DNA from: a phage
Assembly (NCBI GenBank): GCA_023802575.1
Contig: GCA_023802575.1_3947.1
DNA: 64,000 nt
Direction: 5' to 3' (one strand)
Shown here: one piece after another, positions 46,173 through 58,435 of the stretch
How positions within the stretch are numbered: position 1 is the first letter of the stretch
Layout: each line of letters opens with the position of its first letter
The notes under the pieces: model-generated
What the model was told of the DNA's origin: nothing
What the model saw: the letters and a program-made list of their open reading frames with translations, nothing else
Databases searched by the model: none
Program-made: the position numbers and the translations under genes

Positions 46173-46431
46173 TCAGATTAAATTGCCAGTTAATGATAAG
46201 TGCATTTTATAGCCTTTTTTGGTAAAGACGTTCACTTTACCGAGTGATTTTACACCTTTAAAAAGGTTGTTTGAACTGCGTTTTAAGGTTAGTTGTTTAT
46301 CAACCTTCACGCCCCACCTTACAGCAGATTGTTTTCCGTTGTCAACCACTTTCCCGCATAACTTTTTAGCCATGATACGAGCGTCATCACGAGTTTTTAC
46401 AGTAATTACAACGTTTTTGATAATAGCCATT
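46173..46431 (-). CDS. Small basic protein
   Basis: 86 aa from ATG at 46431 (MAIIKN) with GGAGAAC RBS; Lys-rich. Confidence 0.5.
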
Positions 46432-46516
46432 TTTAAGTTCTCCAATTTAGGATTTAGTGGTAAAGTTCTTTATCTGGGGCTTACTTTATCGGACTATAAG
46501 CCCCTTGTAAAGTACT
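46432..46516 (-). promoter_or_regulatory. Intergenic cassette, type 2
   Basis: As above. Confidence 0.6.
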
Positions 46517-46900
46517 TTATTTGTTAATTTTGAAGATAGTTACGTAACCATCACTACCGATTATTTGAGACGCTCCAGCTTTTTCTACTTGATAGCCCAT
46601 ATTTTCAAGATGATAAATAGCATCATCGTAACCGTATGCGCCACCCTGATAACGTCTCTTGTCACATCTTATCAGGTTTTTTCCACGTCCTGCAAGTGCA
46701 TGGAGAATGGATTTTTCACTTGAAAGAGTACCATCTAGCATTGTAGCTGTGTAATGGTTGATTTTATTCCCGTTGATATCGTACTTGAAATTAAATGAGT
46801 GAACAACAATAACGTTACCTTTAAAATTCTCATCAAGTGACTTCTCCAGTGCGTTGCGAAAGTTGTCTTTGTTCACGAATTTAGGTGCACGGTATGCCAT
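46517..46900 (-). CDS. Accessory protein
   Basis: 127 aa; first gene of the cassette array. Confidence 0.5.
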   Translation of the reverse strand: MAYRAPKFVNKDNFRNALEKSLDENFKGNVIVVHSFNFKYDINGNKINHYTATMLDGTLSSEKSILHALAGRGKNLIRCDKRRYQGGAYGYDDAIYHLENMGYQVEKAGASQIIGSDGYVTIFKINK

Positions 46901-46975
46901 TTTTGAATCTCCAGTTTAGGACTTTGTTTAGTGGGGAAGGTCATTCCCTCCCCGTTGATGCAAATACTAGATAAC
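46901..46975 (-). promoter_or_regulatory. Intergenic cassette, type 1
   Basis: CAACGGGGAGGGAATGACCTTCCCCACTAAACAAAGTCCTAAACTGGAGATTCAAAAATG. Confidence 0.6.
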
Positions 46976-47420
46976 CACGTTCAAAGAGTCAAGAAAAATT
47001 TTAAAAATATTTTTGGCAAAACTGTAATGAAACGGGCGCACACGACTACCACAAAACAGAACACAAATCAAGAATTATTTTTCAATCCGCTACAAATTTT
47101 TCTCTTGACTTTTGGGGAGAGGGGGAGTAAGAGGGGGAGAGGGGTTGGTCTGGCTGTTTATAAAAACCTACCTGCACAATTCTAAAATGATTTTTCTTGC
47201 CCGACCTGAGCGGGGTCTGCACGTTTTGAAAATGAAAAAGCTCTTTGGAGATTACCTGCACAGTTTGAAAATGAATTTTCCCTTTGGAGTTCAAAATTCT
47301 CTCCACAGATTTCTGTCCAGACTTTTACCTGCACAATTCTGAAATGAAAAAGCCCCCCTTACCTGAAAAATTTACCAGATAAGAAAGGCTTAGTCTATTG
47401 TGTATATTCTACACAGTTTC
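46976..47420. repeat. Non-coding region with purine G-tract and four direct repeats
   Basis: GGGGAGAGGGGGAGTAAGAGGGGGAGAGGGG at about 47110-47147; four copies of CTGCAC(A/G)NTT(C/T)(T/G)(A/G)AAATGA at about 47170, 47215, 47255, 47328. Confidence 0.6.
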
Positions 47421-48206
47421 TTAGTTCTTTGCGTCTAAGAAGGTAACTTCTGGTGATGAGAAGATTGCCTTAACATTCTCATCAGTTCTCGCATAAATGT
47501 AAGCATCTGCATCACTACCGAATGTCACAGCAATACGATTATTGCTCTTTGACAGGCGGGTAACTAGAGCGTTACTTAGAGACATCTTTTCAACCGGAGG
47601 GTTACTTTGATGTATCTTACCCTTTCTACGTCTGAAGAGGGTAACTGCATTATCTGTGAACACTGCTATACCTGCAAAATATTCTGGTTCACAATAGTTC
47701 TTCCAACCTGAGCGTAACTTGTGGTACATCTCACCTTCATAGACATATAAGTAAACGTCTACGCTTTTCATTACCTGATTGATGATAACGGTGACAGCTT
47801 GATGGTCAAGTCCACCGATACCTGCACCAATCATAGGTAAACCAACTTTCTTCAACTGATTAACTTCGCAGTACCTGTTAAGTTTCTTCAAAGATGACTC
47901 TAAAGCACTGTATCTGGCATCTTTACCAGTTTTAAGCTGAGTGTAGAGGTTAGCTATACGGCCTTGTTCTAAACGTGCTACAGAGATATTACCTAGTAAA
48001 TCCTCACAGGGTTTATGTCCAATGCCACCTGCGTACAAGTAAACTTCTGTGTCAGTTTCATAGGCTTTTGGGTAAAGTTTAGAAATCTTGTCAGCAATAC
48101 CTGCACCCATTAAGTTCATACAGTTGCAACCGTGTCCAATGACATCAAACTTGCCTTTATCAAAAGCATTAAAGATATCACCATTGATGATTTTTACAAT
48201 ACCCAT
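47421..48206 (-). CDS. Macro-domain protein (ADP-ribose binding/processing) with C-terminal extension
   Basis: 261 aa; N-terminal GDIFNA...DVIGHGCNCMNLMGAGIADKI matches the macro-domain N-x(n)-G-x-G-I-A signature (TARG1/DarG-like flavour); later Gly-rich loop LPMIGAGIGGLD. Confidence 0.65.
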   Translation of the reverse strand: MGIVKIINGDIFNAFDKGKFDVIGHGCNCMNLMGAGIADKISKLYPKAYETDTEVYLYAGGIGHKPCEDLLGNISVARLEQGRIANLYTQLKTGKDARYSALESSLKKLNRYCEVNQLKKVGLPMIGAGIGGLDHQAVTVIINQVMKSVDVYLYVYEGEMYHKLRSGWKNYCEPEYFAGIAVFTDNAVTLFRRRKGKIHQSNPPVEKMSLSNALVTRLSKSNNRIAVTFGSDADAYIYARTDENVKAIFSSPEVTFLDAKN

Positions 48207-48207
48207 C

Positions 48208-48408
48208 TTAACATCTCTCCCAAGATTCTTTGTCTTCAGAAGGTTTTACACGTTGCCCTTCATGGTCTACCCAGATGCACCCACAACCTTCACAGATTAC
48301 TGGCATTGCATAACCAGCTTTAAAGTCATCTTCAGTGATAAGACCTTTTAAGTCACCTGTATCACGTCCGAACATTTCAATAGAACAGTCTTTGCAGAAG
48401 TCAGCCAT
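48208..48408 (-). CDS. Small zinc-ribbon protein
   Basis: 66 aa; CKDC and CEGCGC cysteine pairs. Confidence 0.45.
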   Translation of the reverse strand: MADFCKDCSIEMFGRDTGDLKGLITEDDFKAGYAMPVICEGCGCIWVDHEGQRVKPSEDKESWERC

Positions 48409-48420
48409 ATAACATACACC

Positions 48421-48648
48421 TTATAGTTCAGTTTCTCGTAATTCTTTACCTTCATCATAGAAGCATTTATAGAATGTATCTATAGAAATTCTGGCAAAGG
48501 TAAGGTCTTCAAAGTATTCTTCTGGAGTTATACCTGTAAAACTAAAACCATCAAGATTGTAAAACGGTATTACTGTGTCATCGCTCATGAAAACACATGC
48601 AGATACGACTTCTCCAGTATCTTTGTCAATTATTTCTAGAGCTTTCAT
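48421..48648 (-). CDS. Hypothetical protein
   Basis: 75 aa. Confidence 0.4.
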   Translation of the reverse strand: MKALEIIDKDTGEVVSACVFMSDDTVIPFYNLDGFSFTGITPEEYFEDLTFARISIDTFYKCFYDEGKELRETEL

Positions 48649-49780: not shown

Positions 49781-50260
49781 TTAACCGAGGACTTTAGCAA
49801 GGATATTCGCAGCCATCGAAGAAGCTTTTGCAGCAGCAACTACGCCAGCTTTGACAGTGCTATCCTTAATAGCAGATACCGTTGCAGCATCAGTAAAGAG
49901 ATAAGTGATTGTTTTGGAACCACTTGTAAAGGAAAGCATAAGAGTAGTTTCCAGATTGAAAGAGCGATACGGAGCACCTTCTTTAACGATACCTTCAGCA
50001 CCTAACTCTGAAGCCTTACCCATATCATAGATAGTCATCAGGTTTTCTTTGTGTGCAGTCGTTGAACCAACACCTTTTACGTGCTTCTTAACGTTCAACA
50101 ATGCACGATATTCACGAATGCTACCGTCAGCTTTTACATTAACAGCACGGAAAATTTTACCTTCAAAGTTACCTTGAATCATTTTACGAACTACTTCAGA
50201 TTTGTTTGCCGTATCGTCCAGTGCTACCGTAATGATATTGTTCATAAGTTCTTCTCTCAA
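49781..50260 (-). CDS. Hypothetical protein
   Basis: 159 aa. Confidence 0.5.
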   Translation of the reverse strand: MREELMNNIITVALDDTANKSEVVRKMIQGNFEGKIFRAVNVKADGSIREYRALLNVKKHVKGVGSTTAHKENLMTIYDMGKASELGAEGIVKEGAPYRSFNLETTLMLSFTSGSKTITYLFTDAATVSAIKDSTVKAGVVAAAKASSMAANILAKVLG

Positions 50261-50952
50261 TGTTTAACTAACATAGTTTTAATGTGTGGAAGGATTCTGT
50301 TTACCTTCTGAACATTATTCTCTGTATCTTCTATAAAGCATACTATATTAAAGTAAGGAAGAATGCAAGACTGAATCATCCTCACTTTCAAACTTTCTGC
50401 ACTTATAGAGTTAGTTCCAAAACCACGCATAAAAAGCAAGTAATCATGCTCTATATTGTGCCTTAAAAACATCTCAGTAGGTATTCTCTGAGATTCACCT
50501 CTTGCTGTCAAGAGTCCAACTGCTGCATGATTTGCAATTGCATCAATAATGTTGAAAACATATGTTGGTTTTGCTCTTACAGAATCAAGAAGATTAGTGT
50601 ACTGTGAGAATGACCCATCAGTCAATTCCGTTGAGCAATCTTCGTGATTAAAATTTGTAAGAACGCCATCAATATCTGCTAAGATGAGGTTACCTTTTTC
50701 TACAAGGTCTTTATTGACTATGACTAAACTATCACGCCTTACACCTATAGTTTGTCCAGTCTCTTTGTCCACAACGCTCACAATTGGTTCTGATGTATGG
50801 AACTCTTCAAGTGAACATACAACTTCTCTTGCAGTATCTTCAAAATCCCTGCACTGTTCTGGAGTCCATACACAGGAATCAAGACCTAACTCATGAGGGT
50901 GCAAGTCATAAGCATGGCACAGTACTTCATCAGACTTTCTTAATTTTTTCAT
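50257..50952 (-). CDS. HAD-family phosphatase-like protein
   Basis: 231 aa; DxDG motif in ILADIDGVLT. Confidence 0.45.
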   Translation of the reverse strand: MKKLRKSDEVLCHAYDLHPHELGLDSCVWTPEQCRDFEDTAREVVCSLEEFHTSEPIVSVVDKETGQTIGVRRDSLVIVNKDLVEKGNLILADIDGVLTNFNHEDCSTELTDGSFSQYTNLLDSVRAKPTYVFNIIDAIANHAAVGLLTARGESQRIPTEMFLRHNIEHDYLLFMRGFGTNSISAESLKVRMIQSCILPYFNIVCFIEDTENNVQKVNRILPHIKTMLVKH

Positions 50953-55711: not shown

Positions 55712-57493
55712 TTAAAGCTGCTTGTCAATATTATTTCGAATATCGCCAAGAGTTGTGTAGCCAAACTGCTCAGAGTCACTAAAGACTAAACGTAAAGCAC
55801 AAGCTGGATGTTCAAGTGCATCTGCAAAGCTCTGGAATCCATAGCCATCTACAGCTTTCAATTTATCACCATCCCACATAGGCGCTACACCACCAAAGGC
55901 AGACTTCTTCACACCACTATCTGTTTTAGGGTCTTTTGCAAGCATAATCTCCTTACCACCAATGCTTGCAAGAGTTGCTTTGACAGCAAATGCAAAGGTG
56001 TCACGAGTCATGTACTGGTAAGTGTAAGAGCCTACACCAAACACTACGTTAGAGCTTGCAAAACCCATTTCATACAAACGCTTCAATATTTCGTTTGCAC
56101 GTTCCAACGTGATAGAGTCACCATAAATAAGTCCGATGTGCTCATCCAGTACTTTAAAACCTTTGGAGTTGATAGTCCCTCCGAAGATGTTATACAGGGT
56201 CTTAATAGCTCCATCAATCTCTGCTACAGGACGTGTTACAACGTTTGCAGAACCAACCATATAAGCATTCTTCAGCAGTACTGTATCAGCAACTTCAAAG
56301 TCTTCTCGGTCAACAACCATTTCGTAGCCTTCTGACAGTAGCCATCCAGCAATACCATAGTTGATGTTTTCAAGCTTCATGTTCAGAACAGATTTCAGCA
56401 TTGTATCACTAGCTTCCAGCTTGCTAAGATGTTCATAATAAGCCTTCTTAGCACATTCTAAGTGGATTGCTTTATAACCTGTGACAATATGCACAGGGTC
56501 TCCAGAGTCAGGACGAATTACCAGCTTGCCGTCACGTTCCATAATCTCTTTACGGAGTTCTGGCAGTATCACTGATACAGTTCTCCAGAAGTTATAAGTA
56601 TCTGAAACAATACTTGCAATACCCGTTGGGTAAGTTTCTGTTAAGAAACGACGGAAGGTTTGTAACTCACCTTTAAAGCGTCTTTCTTCTTCAATCAATT
56701 CGTTACCACCTTCCCAAGCAATGTTTGCACACATTACAGAGTGCTCAGTGGCTGGTACAGAGCTACCAATATCAGAGACTGGGTAAGACTGTCCGTAGAT
56801 GCGTTTAGCTGTATATACGGCAGGGAAGCTATCAGTTCCTTTAAAGCTGGTCAAGTGGCCTACAGCATTAAATGCGTCATCAGTAAAGCCGGACATACCA
56901 CGCATAGCAAAGTCATGGCACTGATAAGGCAAATGCAAGTCGTTATCACAAGTAAGGTCAGCCCACTTCTTACAGATACGTTTGTAGTGCAATGCAATAG
57001 TTGCAATGGTACAAGCCTTCCAAATCTCAGCAGAGAAAGCATCTTCCAGATAACCTGCTACCCAATGGAAACCTGAAACAGTGTTCTGGAAAACAATCAT
57101 TGGGACACGCATAGGGACAACTGTGCCTTCTTCTACAGCGTATACTTCAACTGGTAGATAACCTAAGTCGTGAAGTGCTTCCCAATGCTCTCGACCGATA
57201 GCATCTTTACCAAGAACACCATTCATGACTTCTAAGATTTCGTCAATTGTTTCTTTTTTATCACGTTCAAAGAAAGTGGCATTCCAGTGGTCTATCAAGT
57301 AATCTTTAACAAAACGTTGAATACCAAAAGCCGCTACACCGTCAATTGCTAAAGGGCTGTTAAACCATTTATCACTACGTGGTGTCAGGTTGAACATCAA
57401 GTACTCTGTTGCGCTAGGATACTGGTAAACATGACCAGATTTGTAAGCATCTGCATTTAAACCTGCTGGTACTGCATAAAGTGATTTAGTCAT
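55712..57493 (-). CDS. Nicotinamide phosphoribosyltransferase-family protein (NadV/Namat-like)
   Basis: 593 aa; N-terminal NADAYKSGHVYQYP matches NAMPT signature (human TDSYKVTHYKQYPP); later SSVPATEHSV matches VPAAEHS. Confidence 0.8.
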   Translation of the reverse strand: MTKSLYAVPAGLNADAYKSGHVYQYPSATEYLMFNLTPRSDKWFNSPLAIDGVAAFGIQRFVKDYLIDHWNATFFERDKKETIDEILEVMNGVLGKDAIGREHWEALHDLGYLPVEVYAVEEGTVVPMRVPMIVFQNTVSGFHWVAGYLEDAFSAEIWKACTIATIALHYKRICKKWADLTCDNDLHLPYQCHDFAMRGMSGFTDDAFNAVGHLTSFKGTDSFPAVYTAKRIYGQSYPVSDIGSSVPATEHSVMCANIAWEGGNELIEEERRFKGELQTFRRFLTETYPTGIASIVSDTYNFWRTVSVILPELRKEIMERDGKLVIRPDSGDPVHIVTGYKAIHLECAKKAYYEHLSKLEASDTMLKSVLNMKLENINYGIAGWLLSEGYEMVVDREDFEVADTVLLKNAYMVGSANVVTRPVAEIDGAIKTLYNIFGGTINSKGFKVLDEHIGLIYGDSITLERANEILKRLYEMGFASSNVVFGVGSYTYQYMTRDTFAFAVKATLASIGGKEIMLAKDPKTDSGVKKSAFGGVAPMWDGDKLKAVDGYGFQSFADALEHPACALRLVFSDSEQFGYTTLGDIRNNIDKQL

Positions 57494-57509
57494 CTTTTAA
57501 TCTCTCTTA

Positions 57510-57531
57510 AAATGGGGCTTGGAAGCCCCTA
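57510..57531 (-). other. RNA hairpin between the two NAD-pathway genes
   Basis: GGGGCTTCCAAGCCCC followed by ATTTTAA on minus strand. Confidence 0.35.
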
Positions 57532-57538
57532 TAAAGTT

Positions 57539-58435
57539 TTAATCAAGGTTTGCTACAGTAACTTGGCTATAATGTGTTAAGCCACGGTCTTTAGCTTCCC
57601 CTAAAGAGTTTGTAGTGTAGATATGGTCAATACCATTGTCAAGAAGGTTTTCAACATCTTTAGAGAAGATACCATGTGTTACATAGAGTTCCACTCGTTT
57701 TGCACCTGCTTCACGAAGATGTTTAGCTGCTTCTATGAAGGTTCGTCCTCCATCACAAATATCATCCAGAATCATGACGGTTTTATCTGTCAAATCAACA
57801 TCGTCAAGGATTCGCATACCAGTGATTTCACCAGTCTTGAGGTTGCGTACTTTAGACATTGTGATATATGGTTTATCCACCTCTTTAGCGGTTTCTGCAA
57901 CCTTCTTAGCAGCACCTGCATCTGGGGCCACTAAGTAATCAACCAGTGGGTCATTTGCATAGTGGACTGCAATCTCCTTTTGAGGAATACTCTGGAAGCA
58001 GTTAAACAGGTTATCTGGAACGTAACTGTGAGGGTCAACTGCACAGACTGCACCAAACCCCATTGCATTAACCTGTTTAGCAAAAACCTTCAAAGCTGCT
58101 GCATCGCCTTTAAACATGTGACGGTCATATCGTGCATTTGGTAAGTAGTAAAAGATGACAGTCTTTAAAGCATAATCATGAGGAATTAAATCATCAATTG
58201 CTTCTTTAGCAAGTGCTACAGCAAACAATGTGTCTTTATCATAACCTTTTACAATCATAATCACATTGTTGATGGATGATGCAGCATAAGCAGTAAAATC
58301 AACAAACTCTGGTGAAAAGTGTCCACCAATCTCACCAGAAGGAAATTGGATGATGTTAAACTCTTCTTCATGAGTTCCTTTAGTTGGTGAATGAACTGTA
58401 ACACGTATAGATGTTTTCATAATTTTCTCTCTCAA
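57539..58435 (-). CDS. Ribose-phosphate pyrophosphokinase-family protein (Prs/Adps-like)
   Basis: 298 aa; PRPP-binding loop VMILDDICDGGRTF; adjacent to NAMPT-like gene. Confidence 0.7.
   Translation of the reverse strand: MREKIMKTSIRVTVHSPTKGTHEEEFNIIQFPSGEIGGHFSPEFVDFTAYAASSINNVIMIVKGYDKDTLFAVALAKEAIDDLIPHDYALKTVIFYYLPNARYDRHMFKGDAAALKVFAKQVNAMGFGAVCAVDPHSYVPDNLFNCFQSIPQKEIAVHYANDPLVDYLVAPDAGAAKKVAETAKEVDKPYITMSKVRNLKTGEITGMRILDDVDLTDKTVMILDDICDGGRTFIEAAKHLREAGAKRVELYVTHGIFSKDVENLLDNGIDHIYTTNSLGEAKDRGLTHYSQVTVANLD

What the first reader, a model, noticed from the sequence alone, without database searches (positions are those of the whole stretch)
47421..48408. Phage macro-domain protein with an extra C-terminal domain, coupled to a zinc-ribbon mini-protein
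The N-x-x-G-x-G-I-A type motif (HGCNCMNLMGAGIA) and Gly-rich loop indicate a macro domain, which binds or hydrolyses ADP-ribose derivatives. In a lytic phage that also carries an NAD+ reconstitution module and an ART-fold candidate, this points to reversal of host ADP-ribosylation or destruction of an ADP-ribose-derived signal. The roughly 100-aa C-terminal extension has no motif I recognise.
Basis: partly seen in the sequence, partly recalled or inferred. Interest (0 to 1): 0.6.

Follow-up and report, generated by a model that had tools for sequence, protein, structure and literature searches.

The report
Phage macrodomain enzyme with orphan tail domain
A Felix O1-type phage encodes an ADP-ribose-removing enzyme related to a T4 protein that defeats the bacterial DarTG2 defence. 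It carries an extra fast-evolving C-terminal domain of unknown fold found only in this phage subfamily, while the neighbouring zinc-ribbon gene appears to be an unrelated passenger.

Summary

- **Closest studied relative:** T4 Tk.4 (AdfM), 34% identical, E 5e-23. T4 needs it to resist DarTG2.
- **Active site:** the Lys of TARG1, DarG and PhiKZ AdfM is an invariant Gln here. SCO6735 has the same Gln and cleaves thymidine-ADP-ribose on DNA.
- **Best reading (about 0.5):** an anti-DarT2 DNA de-ADP-ribosylase.
- **C-terminal domain:** an orphan. It has no Pfam or PDB match and occurs only fused to this macrodomain in Ounavirinae. It evolves about twice as fast as the macrodomain, so I infer a binding module.
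- **Cassette exchange:** the gene is swapped between otherwise 95-100% identical phages.
- **Zinc-ribbon gene:** it abuts the macro gene, but it is common in T5-like and rV5-like phages without a macro neighbour, and its alleles reassort independently. It is not a functional pair.
- **Rival reading:** an accessory role for the phage's NARP1 NAD+ pathway.

Verdict: a new variant of a known kind, of moderate interest.

The parts
47421..48206 (-). Gene for the 261-aa two-domain protein (Tk.4/AdfM-type macrodomain plus C-terminal domain), stop codon included
   Evidence: ORF list. phrog_335 E 7e-110 over residues 1-260. 258 phage records cover at least 80% of it. AF2 pLDDT 90.2, pTM 0.88.
47736..48206 (-). 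Macrodomain, residues 1-157. Family-invariant residues include H25, N28, D52, N86-L-Y-T-Q90, P124 and G127-A-G-I130.
47937..47939 (-). Codon CAG for Gln90, at the position of the catalytic Lys of TARG1 (K84), DarG (K80) and PhiKZ AdfM (K78)
   Evidence: HMM alignment NLYTQ versus YLITK. BLASTP versus PhiKZ gp104 aligns T-Q with T-K. Gln is also present in BT1257/2afc. SCO6735 Gln85 is essential for dT-ADPr hydrolysis (PMC9411070).
48093..48134 (-).
   Evidence: Translation. Aligns to TARG1 HCISEDCRMGAGIA. Conserved in T4 Tk.4 as HGCNCFHTMGSGVA.
47424..47735 (-). C-terminal orphan domain, residues 158-261: one helix, six or seven beta strands, one helix. Only P174, G179 and Y236 are (nearly) invariant.
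48208..48408 (-). Upstream 66-aa CxxC...CxxC zinc-ribbon mini-protein (phrog_2210). Adjacent, but judged not to be part of the functional unit.
   Evidence: phrog_2210 E 2.8e-41. Four invariant Cys. 836 phage records including T5-like and rV5-like phages; the two contexts inspected have no macro neighbour. Independent allele assortment.
48215..48221 (-). GGGAGAG ribosome-binding-like run inside the end of the zinc-ribbon ORF, 8-14 nt before the macro ATG
   Evidence: Read directly from the sequence. Function inferred.
47350..47391 (-). Intrinsic-terminator-like hairpin (17 pairs, then a T run) 30 nt after the macro stop codon. The macro gene would then be the last gene of its leftward transcription unit.
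   Evidence: Terminator scan. The hairpin is conserved in L003 although the gene before it is only 42% identical.

Best explanation
The gene encodes a member of the T4 Tk.4 (AdfM) family of phage macrodomain proteins. This is a Gln-type branch of the TARG1/DarG/ALC1-like class.

Proposed mechanism:
- The protein is made from the early, leftward transcription unit.
- It binds ADP-ribose attached to thymidine in single-stranded phage DNA, a modification added by host DarT2-type toxins using NAD+.
- It hydrolyses the ribose-base bond. Gln90 positions the distal ribose and an activated water, as proposed for SCO6735, rather than forming the covalent Lys intermediate used by TARG1.
- This restores DNA that can be replicated and transcribed.

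The C-terminal domain (about 100 aa) is specific to Ounavirinae and is not catalytic. It is a fast-evolving binding module that increases potency or targeting. The most likely partner is a variable host protein such as the DarT toxin itself (the logic of DarG's second domain), or alternatively DNA or the replisome.

Shown here: macro fold, family membership, the Gln at the catalytic position, the restricted distribution and fast evolution of the C-domain, and cassette exchange of the gene. Inferred: the substrate (DNA-thymidine-ADPr), the catalytic mechanism, and any role of the C-domain.
For: - **Homology to T4 Tk.4.** 34% identity, E 5e-23, over the whole macrodomain, with shared HGCNC, MGxGxA, NLYTQ and IGAGIG motifs.
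- **Experimental anchor.** tk.4 was the single T4 gene depleted on a DarTG2 host. A clean deletion sensitised T4 to DarTG2 (bioRxiv 10.1101/2025.11.20.689424).
- **Gln at the catalytic position.** Gln90 is invariant in 26 family members. It sits where TARG1 K84 and PhiKZ AdfM K78 lie. SCO6735 has Gln85 there, Q85A is inactive, and the enzyme cleaves DarT-made dT-ADPr and protects from DarT (PMC9411070). The best structural neighbour, BT1257, also has Gln.
- **Signs of an arms race.** In L003, L040 and L041 the flanking genes are 95-100% identical while the macro protein is 42% identical, with the nucleotide breakpoint at the macro start codon. The C-domain diverges faster than the macrodomain in 135 of 136 pairs.
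- **Dispensable in the laboratory.** The Bas63 gene annotated 'putative phosphatase' has positive fitness scores in PhageMaP, as expected for a conditional anti-defence gene.
Against: - No experiment exists for any Ounavirinae macro protein. PhageMaP did not include DarTG.
- The T4 evidence is genetic only and comes from a preprint. Hydrolysis of DNA-ADPr by a Tk.4-type protein has not been shown.
- At 34% identity, substrate specificity within macrodomain families can differ.
- The catalytic Lys of DarG is absent.
- T4 Tk.4 works without any C-terminal domain, so that domain is unexplained by this model.
- The C-domain shows no similarity to the DarT-binding part of DarG. The HMM matches stop at about position 155.
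- In some Vibrio phages the homologue lies inside the NAD+ reconstitution operon, which points to small-molecule chemistry instead.
Confidence: 0.5

Rival explanations
1. NAD+/ADP-ribose small-molecule housekeeping linked to NARP1. The macrodomain acts like Poa1p. It would convert ADP-ribose-1''-phosphate, or another 1''/2''-substituted soluble ADPr derivative, back to free ADP-ribose. Candidate substrates include products of ADPR-PP or ADPR-cyclic-phosphate breakdown, O-acyl-ADPr from SIR2 effectors, and glycocyclic ADPr signals. The released ADP-ribose would feed the phage Adps/Namat pathway or destroy a defence signal.
For: - The phage carries NARP1 about 7.5 kb upstream in the same orientation.
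- ADPR-PP decays to ADPR-cyclic-phosphate during Bas63 infection of SIR2-HerA cells.
- In Vibrio phage K470 the homologue lies between, and overlaps, the adps-like and namat-like genes.
- A published survey predicted mostly soluble substrates for phage macrodomains (PMC9503650).
Against: - T4 has Tk.4, and its demonstrated phenotype is anti-DarTG2.
- From memory, not checked here, T4 carries no NARP1.
- Only 3 of 50 macro-only IMG/VR loci have Adps/Namat homologues within 6 kb.
- Poa1p has Ser, not Gln, at the key position.
- Opening the cyclic phosphate would need a 2H phosphodiesterase, which was not identified.
- Deleting genes 79-80 alone accounts for the published NARP1 phenotype.
Confidence: 0.2
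2. Protein (or RNA) de-mono-ADP-ribosylase. The enzyme would remove ADP-ribose from phage or host proteins or RNA that were modified by host ADP-ribosyltransferase effectors or by a phage-encoded ART. The C-terminal domain would select the target.
For: - TARG1 and SCO6735, members of the same structural class, also de-modify proteins.
- TARG1 is the best PDB sequence match (E 5.5e-15).
- A fast-evolving C-domain would fit recognition of a variable protein target.
Against: - The TARG1 Lys84/Asp125 dyad used for Glu/Asp-ADPr is absent. Here the positions are Gln90 and Gly131.
- No ART was verified in this phage.
- The only phenotype known for the family concerns a DNA-modifying toxin.
Confidence: 0.12
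3. Non-catalytic binder. With the class Lys replaced by Gln, the protein would act stoichiometrically, as an ADP-ribose or ADPr-signal sponge, or as a direct inhibitor that binds DarT or another NAD+-using effector. The C-terminal domain would provide the interface.
For: - Catalytically dead SCO6735, DarG and TARG1 mutants still inhibit DarT by interaction.
- DarG neutralises DarT partly through a second, binding domain.
- The C-domain has only structural-type invariant residues (Pro, Gly, Tyr) and evolves fast.
Against: - Gln at this position is catalytically required in SCO6735, not a sign of inactivity.
- Strict conservation of H25, N28, D52 and Q90 across very distant phages is typical of an enzyme.
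- T4 Tk.4 lacks the extra domain yet protects.
Confidence: 0.08

Closest known systems
T4 Tk.4 = AdfM (anti-DarT factor macrodomain), Tevenvirinae
   Same: Same macrodomain family: 34% identity, E 5e-23, across the whole domain. The family motifs HGCNC, MGxGxA, NLYTQ (Gln instead of Lys) and P-x-IGAGIG are shared. Both are dispensable early-region genes of large lytic myoviruses of enterobacteria. The family occurs in 2861 phage records.
   Different: Tk.4 is a bare 155-aa macrodomain, whereas this protein carries an extra 104-aa C-terminal domain. That domain is found only in about 258 Ounavirinae records. The macro part is basic here (pI 8.3) and acidic in T4-like proteins (pI about 5). The anti-DarTG2 phenotype is shown for T4 only.
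Chimallivirus AdfM (PhiKZ gp104) and bacterial DarG2 macrodomain (PDB 5m3i, 5m31, 7omu)
   Different: Identity to PhiKZ gp104 is only 25%, E 2e-5. Their FPTK catalytic Lys is Gln here (a MAFFT alignment places it one column off). The score against the DarG equivalog model is 49 bits against a 250-bit cut-off, and there is no match to DarG's DarT-binding C-terminal half. No darT gene lies nearby.
Streptomyces coelicolor SCO6735 (PDB 5e3b) and Bacteroides BT1257 (PDB 2afc/2fg1)
   Different: Both are cellular single-domain proteins, and SCO6735 is DNA-damage regulated. Neither has the C-terminal domain. The direct residue-by-residue alignment to SCO6735 was not displayed, so the equivalence is transitive through TARG1 K84.
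Human TARG1/OARD1 (PDB 4j5r, 2lgr)
   Different: The TARG1 catalytic dyad Lys84/Asp125 corresponds to Gln90/Gly131 here. TARG1 is a eukaryotic single-domain enzyme.
Yeast Poa1p, ADP-ribose-1''-phosphate phosphatase (PDB 6lfq-6lfu)
   Different: Poa1p has Ser where this family has the invariant Gln (LFTS versus NLYTQ). It is more distant than Tk.4. No phosphatase activity has been shown for any phage member.

Membership tests
Macro domain superfamily (Pfam PF01661) | Significant match to the family HMM above the curated threshold | tested here: met
   30.8 bits against a 22-bit cut-off, E 3.1e-7, residues 25-141.
Macro domain superfamily (Pfam PF01661) | Three-layer alpha/beta/alpha macro fold | tested here: met
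Macro domain superfamily (Pfam PF01661) | ADP-ribose binding or hydrolysis | not testable with these tools
   Needs biochemistry. Only the Gly-rich loops MGAGIA and IGAGIGG are seen in the sequence.
T4 Tk.4 / AdfM family | Full-length macrodomain homology with the family-specific motifs (HGCNC, NLYTQ, IGAGIG) | tested here: met
   BLASTP E 5e-23, 34% identity over residues 3-157 against 2-152. The motifs are invariant in alignment A1.
T4 Tk.4 / AdfM family | Protects the phage from DarTG2 | not testable with these tools
   Shown genetically only for T4. DarTG was not in the Bas63 PhageMaP screen.
DarG antitoxin (NCBIfam NF048014, PADLOC DarG) | Whole-protein score above the equivalog cut-off | tested here: not met
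   49.4 bits against a 250-bit cut-off. Only profile positions 4-155 of 338 match. PADLOC matches positions 5-147 of 329.
DarG antitoxin (NCBIfam NF048014, PADLOC DarG) | Catalytic Lys (DarG K80, TARG1 K84, PhiKZ AdfM K78) | tested here: not met
   Invariant Gln90 lies at that position.
DarG antitoxin (NCBIfam NF048014, PADLOC DarG) | C-terminal DarT-binding domain and an adjacent darT gene | tested here: not met
   The C-domain alone hits nothing in NCBIfam or PADLOC. The neighbouring genes are phage early genes.
Gln-type ALC1-like macrodomains (SCO6735, BT1257) | Gln at the catalytic-Lys position | tested here: met
   Q90 aligns with TARG1 K84, and SCO6735 Gln85 is stated to be equivalent to K84. 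BT1257 shows ...IGQ... aligned to a family member's ...YSQ....
Gln-type ALC1-like macrodomains (SCO6735, BT1257) | Hydrolysis of thymidine-linked ADP-ribose on ssDNA | not testable with these tools
   Needs an in vitro assay with DarT2-modified oligonucleotides.
Poa1p-like ADP-ribose-1''-phosphate phosphatase | Sequence and structure similarity, and the same active-site residues | tested here: inconclusive
Two-gene module 'zinc-ribbon mini-protein plus macro' | Conserved co-occurrence and co-variation of the two genes | tested here: not met
   The Zn-ribbon family is in 836 records, most of them T5-like or rV5-like; the T5-like and rV5-like contexts inspected (one each) have no macro neighbour. 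It is absent next to the distant two-domain homologues L004 and L005. Alleles reassort independently.
PQQ/BamB-type beta-propeller repeat (considered for the C-domain) | Significant profile match and a propeller-blade fold | tested here: not met

The most novel reading that the evidence does not exclude
The Ounavirinae-specific C-terminal domain is a new fold-level module that binds the DarT2 toxin, or another variable host ADP-ribosyltransferase or NADase effector, directly. The protein would then neutralise the defence in two ways: stoichiometric inhibition plus enzymatic erasure. That would be a convergent, non-homologous re-invention of the two-domain logic of bacterial DarG. The rapid divergence and cassette swapping of the gene would reflect matching to different toxin variants.
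Probability: 0.15. Interest if true: 0.6.

Novelty: new variant of a known kind. Interest (0 to 1): 0.4.

Why it matters
DarTG systems are widespread in E. coli, Salmonella and mycobacteria, and Felix O1-type phages are used for Salmonella typing and biocontrol. If this protein is their anti-DarT2 factor, it helps explain their broad host range. It would also show that the Tk.4-type macrodomain, present in about 5.6% of sequenced phages, is a general counter-defence.

The Gln-for-Lys active site links phage enzymes to the SCO6735 mechanism, and so offers a second, Lys-independent chemistry for DNA de-ADP-ribosylation. The orphan C-terminal domain and the allele-swapping hotspot give a tractable handle on how such enzymes are tuned in an arms race.

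If the gene instead services NARP1, it would add a salvage step to a newly discovered NAD+ pathway.

Tried and rejected
2. **C-domain homologous to DarG's DarT-binding half.** There was no HMM match.
4. **Zinc ribbon and macro as a module.** Rejected.
5. **Zinc-ribbon protein against PDB sequences.** Nothing found.
6. **afdb50 fold search.** The library was not available. BFVD returned only the family itself.
7. **Plasmid tblastn to fetch a DarG for comparison.** It returned only phage-plasmid-type macro proteins and a Bacillus SLOG-macro fusion.
8. **The search for related loci with the five-sequence alignment A6.** It failed for lack of a conserved stretch; A1 worked.
9. **Guessing the Bas63 accession (MZ501085).** The guess was wrong. 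The identity of Bas63 'gene 95, putative phosphatase' with this gene therefore rests on the annotation label and gene order only.
10. **Rfam scan of 46400-48600.** Nothing found.
11. **Neighbourhood link to NARP genes.** Found in a Vibrio phage but in only 3 of 50 diverse loci.

Full report
**What is there.**

The coordinates hold two abutting ORFs on the minus strand. One encodes 261 aa (47421..48206) and the other 66 aa (48208..48408). They are separated by TAA-G-ATG, and a GGGAGAG run lies 8-14 nt before the downstream ATG.

The window is a Felix O1-like phage. The 2-kb region is 99.7% identical to Escherichia virus TH10 and about 93% identical to wV8 and many other Felixounavirus genomes. 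In those records the 261-aa gene is already labelled 'macro domain protein', 'putative phosphatase' or 'O-acetyl-ADP-ribose deacetylase'.

**The macrodomain.**

- Pfam Macro is matched above its gathering score (30.8 against 22 bits, E 3.1e-7, residues 25-141).
- phrog_335 covers the full length (E 7e-110).
- The DarG models of NCBIfam and PADLOC match the N-terminal 155-165 residues at E about 1e-13. This is far below the equivalog cut-off, and the DarG C-terminal half is not covered.
- An AlphaFold2 model built on 26 homologues is confident (pLDDT 90.2, pTM 0.88).

**Active site.**

In the family alignment the invariant residues include H25, N28, D52, the run N86-L-Y-T-Q90, P124 and G127-A-G-I130.

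The HMM alignments to TARG1 pair NLYTQ with YLITK. TARG1 Lys84 therefore corresponds to Gln90, and Asp125 corresponds to Gly131. BLASTP against PhiKZ gp104 (AdfM) pairs T-Q with the T-K of its FPTK motif. A MAFFT alignment places this one column off, so I rely on the pairwise and HMM alignments.

The class-defining Lys is therefore absent. This is not a sign of inactivity. SCO6735 of Streptomyces coelicolor has Gln85 at the same position, the Q85A mutant is dead, and the enzyme cleaves DarT-made thymidine-ADP-ribose on DNA and protects cells from DarT (PMC9411070). BT1257, the best structural neighbour, also has Gln there, whereas Poa1p has Ser.

**Closest characterised relative.**

T4 Tk.4 is 34% identical over the entire macrodomain (E 5e-23) and shares all the family motifs, including NLYTQ.

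A 2025 preprint reports that tk.4 was the single T4 gene depleted in a transposon library grown on a DarTG2 host. A clean deletion sensitised T4 to DarTG2, and the authors named the gene adfM (bioRxiv 10.1101/2025.11.20.689424).

A second, DarG2-like phage macrodomain, also called AdfM, was shown biochemically to remove DarT2 modifications from DNA in chimalliviruses (PMC13309987). It is only 25% identical to the protein here and retains the Lys. The window protein therefore belongs to the Tk.4 lineage, not the DarG2-like lineage.

The Tk.4-type macrodomain is very common. tblastn finds it in 2861 of 50,697 phage records, including T4-like, Vi1-like, rV5-like, Vibrio and Aeromonas phages.

**The C-terminal domain.**

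- **Structure.** Residues about 158-261 are predicted as a helix, six or seven beta strands and a helix. The prediction is the same in the full-length model and in isolation.
- **Narrow distribution.** A profile search of 1.84 billion representative proteins found it only fused to this macrodomain, or as gene fragments of such fusions. The remaining hits were weak multi-stretch matches to PQQ/BamB propeller repeats, which do not stand up.
- **Restricted to one subfamily.** Only 258 phage records cover at least 80% of the protein, and every full-length context inspected is Ounavirinae-like.
- **Not universal even there.** Some Ounavirinae-like contigs carry the macrodomain without the extension (L042, L043, L048, L049).
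- **Sequence conservation.** Only Pro174, Gly179 and Tyr236 are (nearly) invariant.
- **Rate of change.** Mean pairwise identity is 29.8% against 57.8% for the macro part. The C-domain is the lower of the two in 135 of 136 pairs.

I infer a non-catalytic, fast-evolving binding module. Its partner is unknown.

**Gene exchange.**

In contig L003 the eight upstream genes are 95-100% identical in protein to the window, and the zinc-ribbon protein is 100% identical. The macro protein is only 42% identical. Nucleotide identity falls from 93-98% to 40-73% exactly at the macro start codon, and similarity reappears at the terminator hairpin, near the end of the aligned stretch.

Two complete IMG/VR genomes show the same pattern (L040, L041). 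The gene is thus an exchangeable cassette in a conserved backbone, which is common for counter-defence loci.

**The zinc-ribbon neighbour.**

The 66-aa protein (phrog_2210) has four invariant Cys, arranged CxxC...CxxC. It occurs in 836 phage records, most at 60-80% identity. In the T5-like phage inspected it sits among tRNA genes, and in the rV5-like phage inspected it ends an operon; neither has a macro neighbour.

It is absent beside the distant two-domain homologues. Its alleles assort independently of the macro alleles: L027 has Zn66 at 72% with macro at about 92%, while L040 and L041 have Zn66 at 98-100% with macro at 42%.

Tight spacing and overlaps are the rule throughout this gene cluster. 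I therefore regard the adjacency as ordinary operon packing.

**Context.**

The gene is the last in a leftward unit: Adps-like, Namat-like, rIIA, rIIB, lysin, HAD/PNKP-like, spanins, small ORFs, Zn-ribbon, macro. It is followed by a 17-pair terminator hairpin at 47391..47350.

The Adps-like and Namat-like genes correspond to Bas63 genes 79-80, the experimentally defined NARP1 pathway (bioRxiv 10.1101/2024.02.11.579819).

In PhageMaP, the Bas63 gene annotated 'putative phosphatase' (gene 95) has positive fitness scores in the conditions shown in the retrieved passages. On that scale a score below 0 means essential, so the gene is dispensable. DarTG was not among the systems tested. The identification of gene 95 with this gene rests on its label and on gene order.

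**Mechanism I commit to (confidence about 0.5).**

The protein is a Tk.4/AdfM-type ADP-ribosyl hydrolase. It removes DarT2-type ADP-ribose from thymidine in phage ssDNA. It uses the Gln-dependent, water-activating chemistry described for SCO6735. The C-terminal domain adds binding affinity or specificity.

- Shown: fold, family, the Gln substitution, the domain's distribution and rate of change, and cassette exchange.
- Inferred: substrate, chemistry and the role of the C-domain.

**Rivals.**

1. *NARP1-linked small-molecule role (0.2).* The family resembles Poa1p. ADPR-PP decays to ADPR-cyclic-phosphate in Bas63 infections. In Vibrio phage K470 the homologue lies between the adps-like and namat-like genes. 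Against this, only 3 of 50 diverse loci show such a linkage, Poa1p lacks the Gln, and the phenotype shown for T4 Tk.4 is anti-DarTG2.
2. *Protein or RNA de-ADP-ribosylation (0.12).*
3. *A non-catalytic binder or sponge (0.08).*

**Novelty.**

The macrodomain call is already in public annotation, and a function for the family has been proposed. What appears undescribed is the following:

- the Ounavirinae-specific orphan C-terminal domain;
- its fast evolution;
- the cassette swapping of the gene;
- the placement of the family in the Gln-type (SCO6735/BT1257) branch rather than with DarG.

This is a new variant of a known kind, of moderate interest.

**Limits.**

- No biochemical function was tested.
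- The SCO6735 equivalence is transitive through TARG1.
- The AF2 coordinates could not be inspected for the interface between the C-domain and the active site.
- afdb50 was unavailable.

Noticed in passing
window 48208-48408 (-); L006:2501-2701; L007:2501-2698: The 66-aa CxxC...CxxC mini-protein is 65-77% identical across three unrelated phage groups (Felix O1-like, rV5-like and T5-like), in 836 records in all. In the T5-like phage inspected it sits among tRNA genes. Conservation this high in a protein this small, across such different phages, suggests an important but unknown host target.
   Followed up: partly
window 46901-47420: This roughly 500-nt non-coding stretch lies after the macro terminator. 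Read on the minus strand it holds four copies of TTTTCATTTTCAnAAnTGTGCAGGTA, at 47353-47326, 47280-47253, 47244-47217 and 47196-47169. A sigma-70-like TTGACT-17-TAGTAT (46992..46964) follows, ahead of the next gene. The repeats are probably a regulatory or promoter array. There is no Rfam match.
   Followed up: partly
window 55712-58435 (-): An Adps-like gene (57539..58435; Pribosyltran/Pribosyl_synth) and a Namat-like gene (55712..57493; NAPRTase/NAMPT_N) form the NARP1 NAD+ reconstitution operon defined experimentally in the related phage Bas63 (genes 79-80).
   Followed up: yes
L003:6001-6780; L040 and L041:6001-6774, against window 47421-48206: This is an allele-replacement hotspot. The macro gene is only 42% identical in protein, while eight upstream genes are 95-100% identical. 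The breakpoint is at the macro start codon, and similarity reappears at the terminator hairpin.
   Followed up: yes
L008:2669-5622 (Vibrio phage K470): A Tk.4-type macro gene ('phosphatase') is wedged between, and overlaps, a ribose-phosphate pyrophosphokinase-like gene and a nicotinamide phosphoribosyltransferase-like gene. These resemble Adps and Namat. The arrangement suggests a link between this macro family and NAD+ reconstitution in some phages. In IMG/VR, L073, L074 and L085 show looser linkage, and 47 of 50 other loci show none.
   Followed up: partly
L042, L043, L048, L049 (84-88 kb IMG/VR contigs): These Ounavirinae-like phages (rIIB 43-58% identical) have a macro gene that is 37-45% identical but lacks the C-terminal domain. 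The domain was therefore gained or lost within the subfamily.
   Followed up: no
L004:5810-6001: In a distant Ounavirinae-like contig, the small gene immediately upstream of the macro gene is a different, non-homologous CxxC...CxxC protein of 63 aa. It may be coincidence, or a recurrent pairing of small zinc-binding proteins with this locus.
   Followed up: no
plasmid hits H114-H120 (Bacillus thuringiensis, about 235-kb plasmids): A Tk.4-like macrodomain (32% identity) lies inside a gene annotated 'SLOG family protein'. This is a macro-SLOG association of the kind predicted to process soluble ADP-ribose derivatives.
   Followed up: no
window 50257-50952 (-): This 231-aa protein has no Pfam hit here, but its homologues in related contigs carry weak HAD_PNKP matches. 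The order rIIB, lysin, HAD-like protein is conserved across Ounavirinae-like contigs (L003, L004, L005, L011).
   Followed up: no
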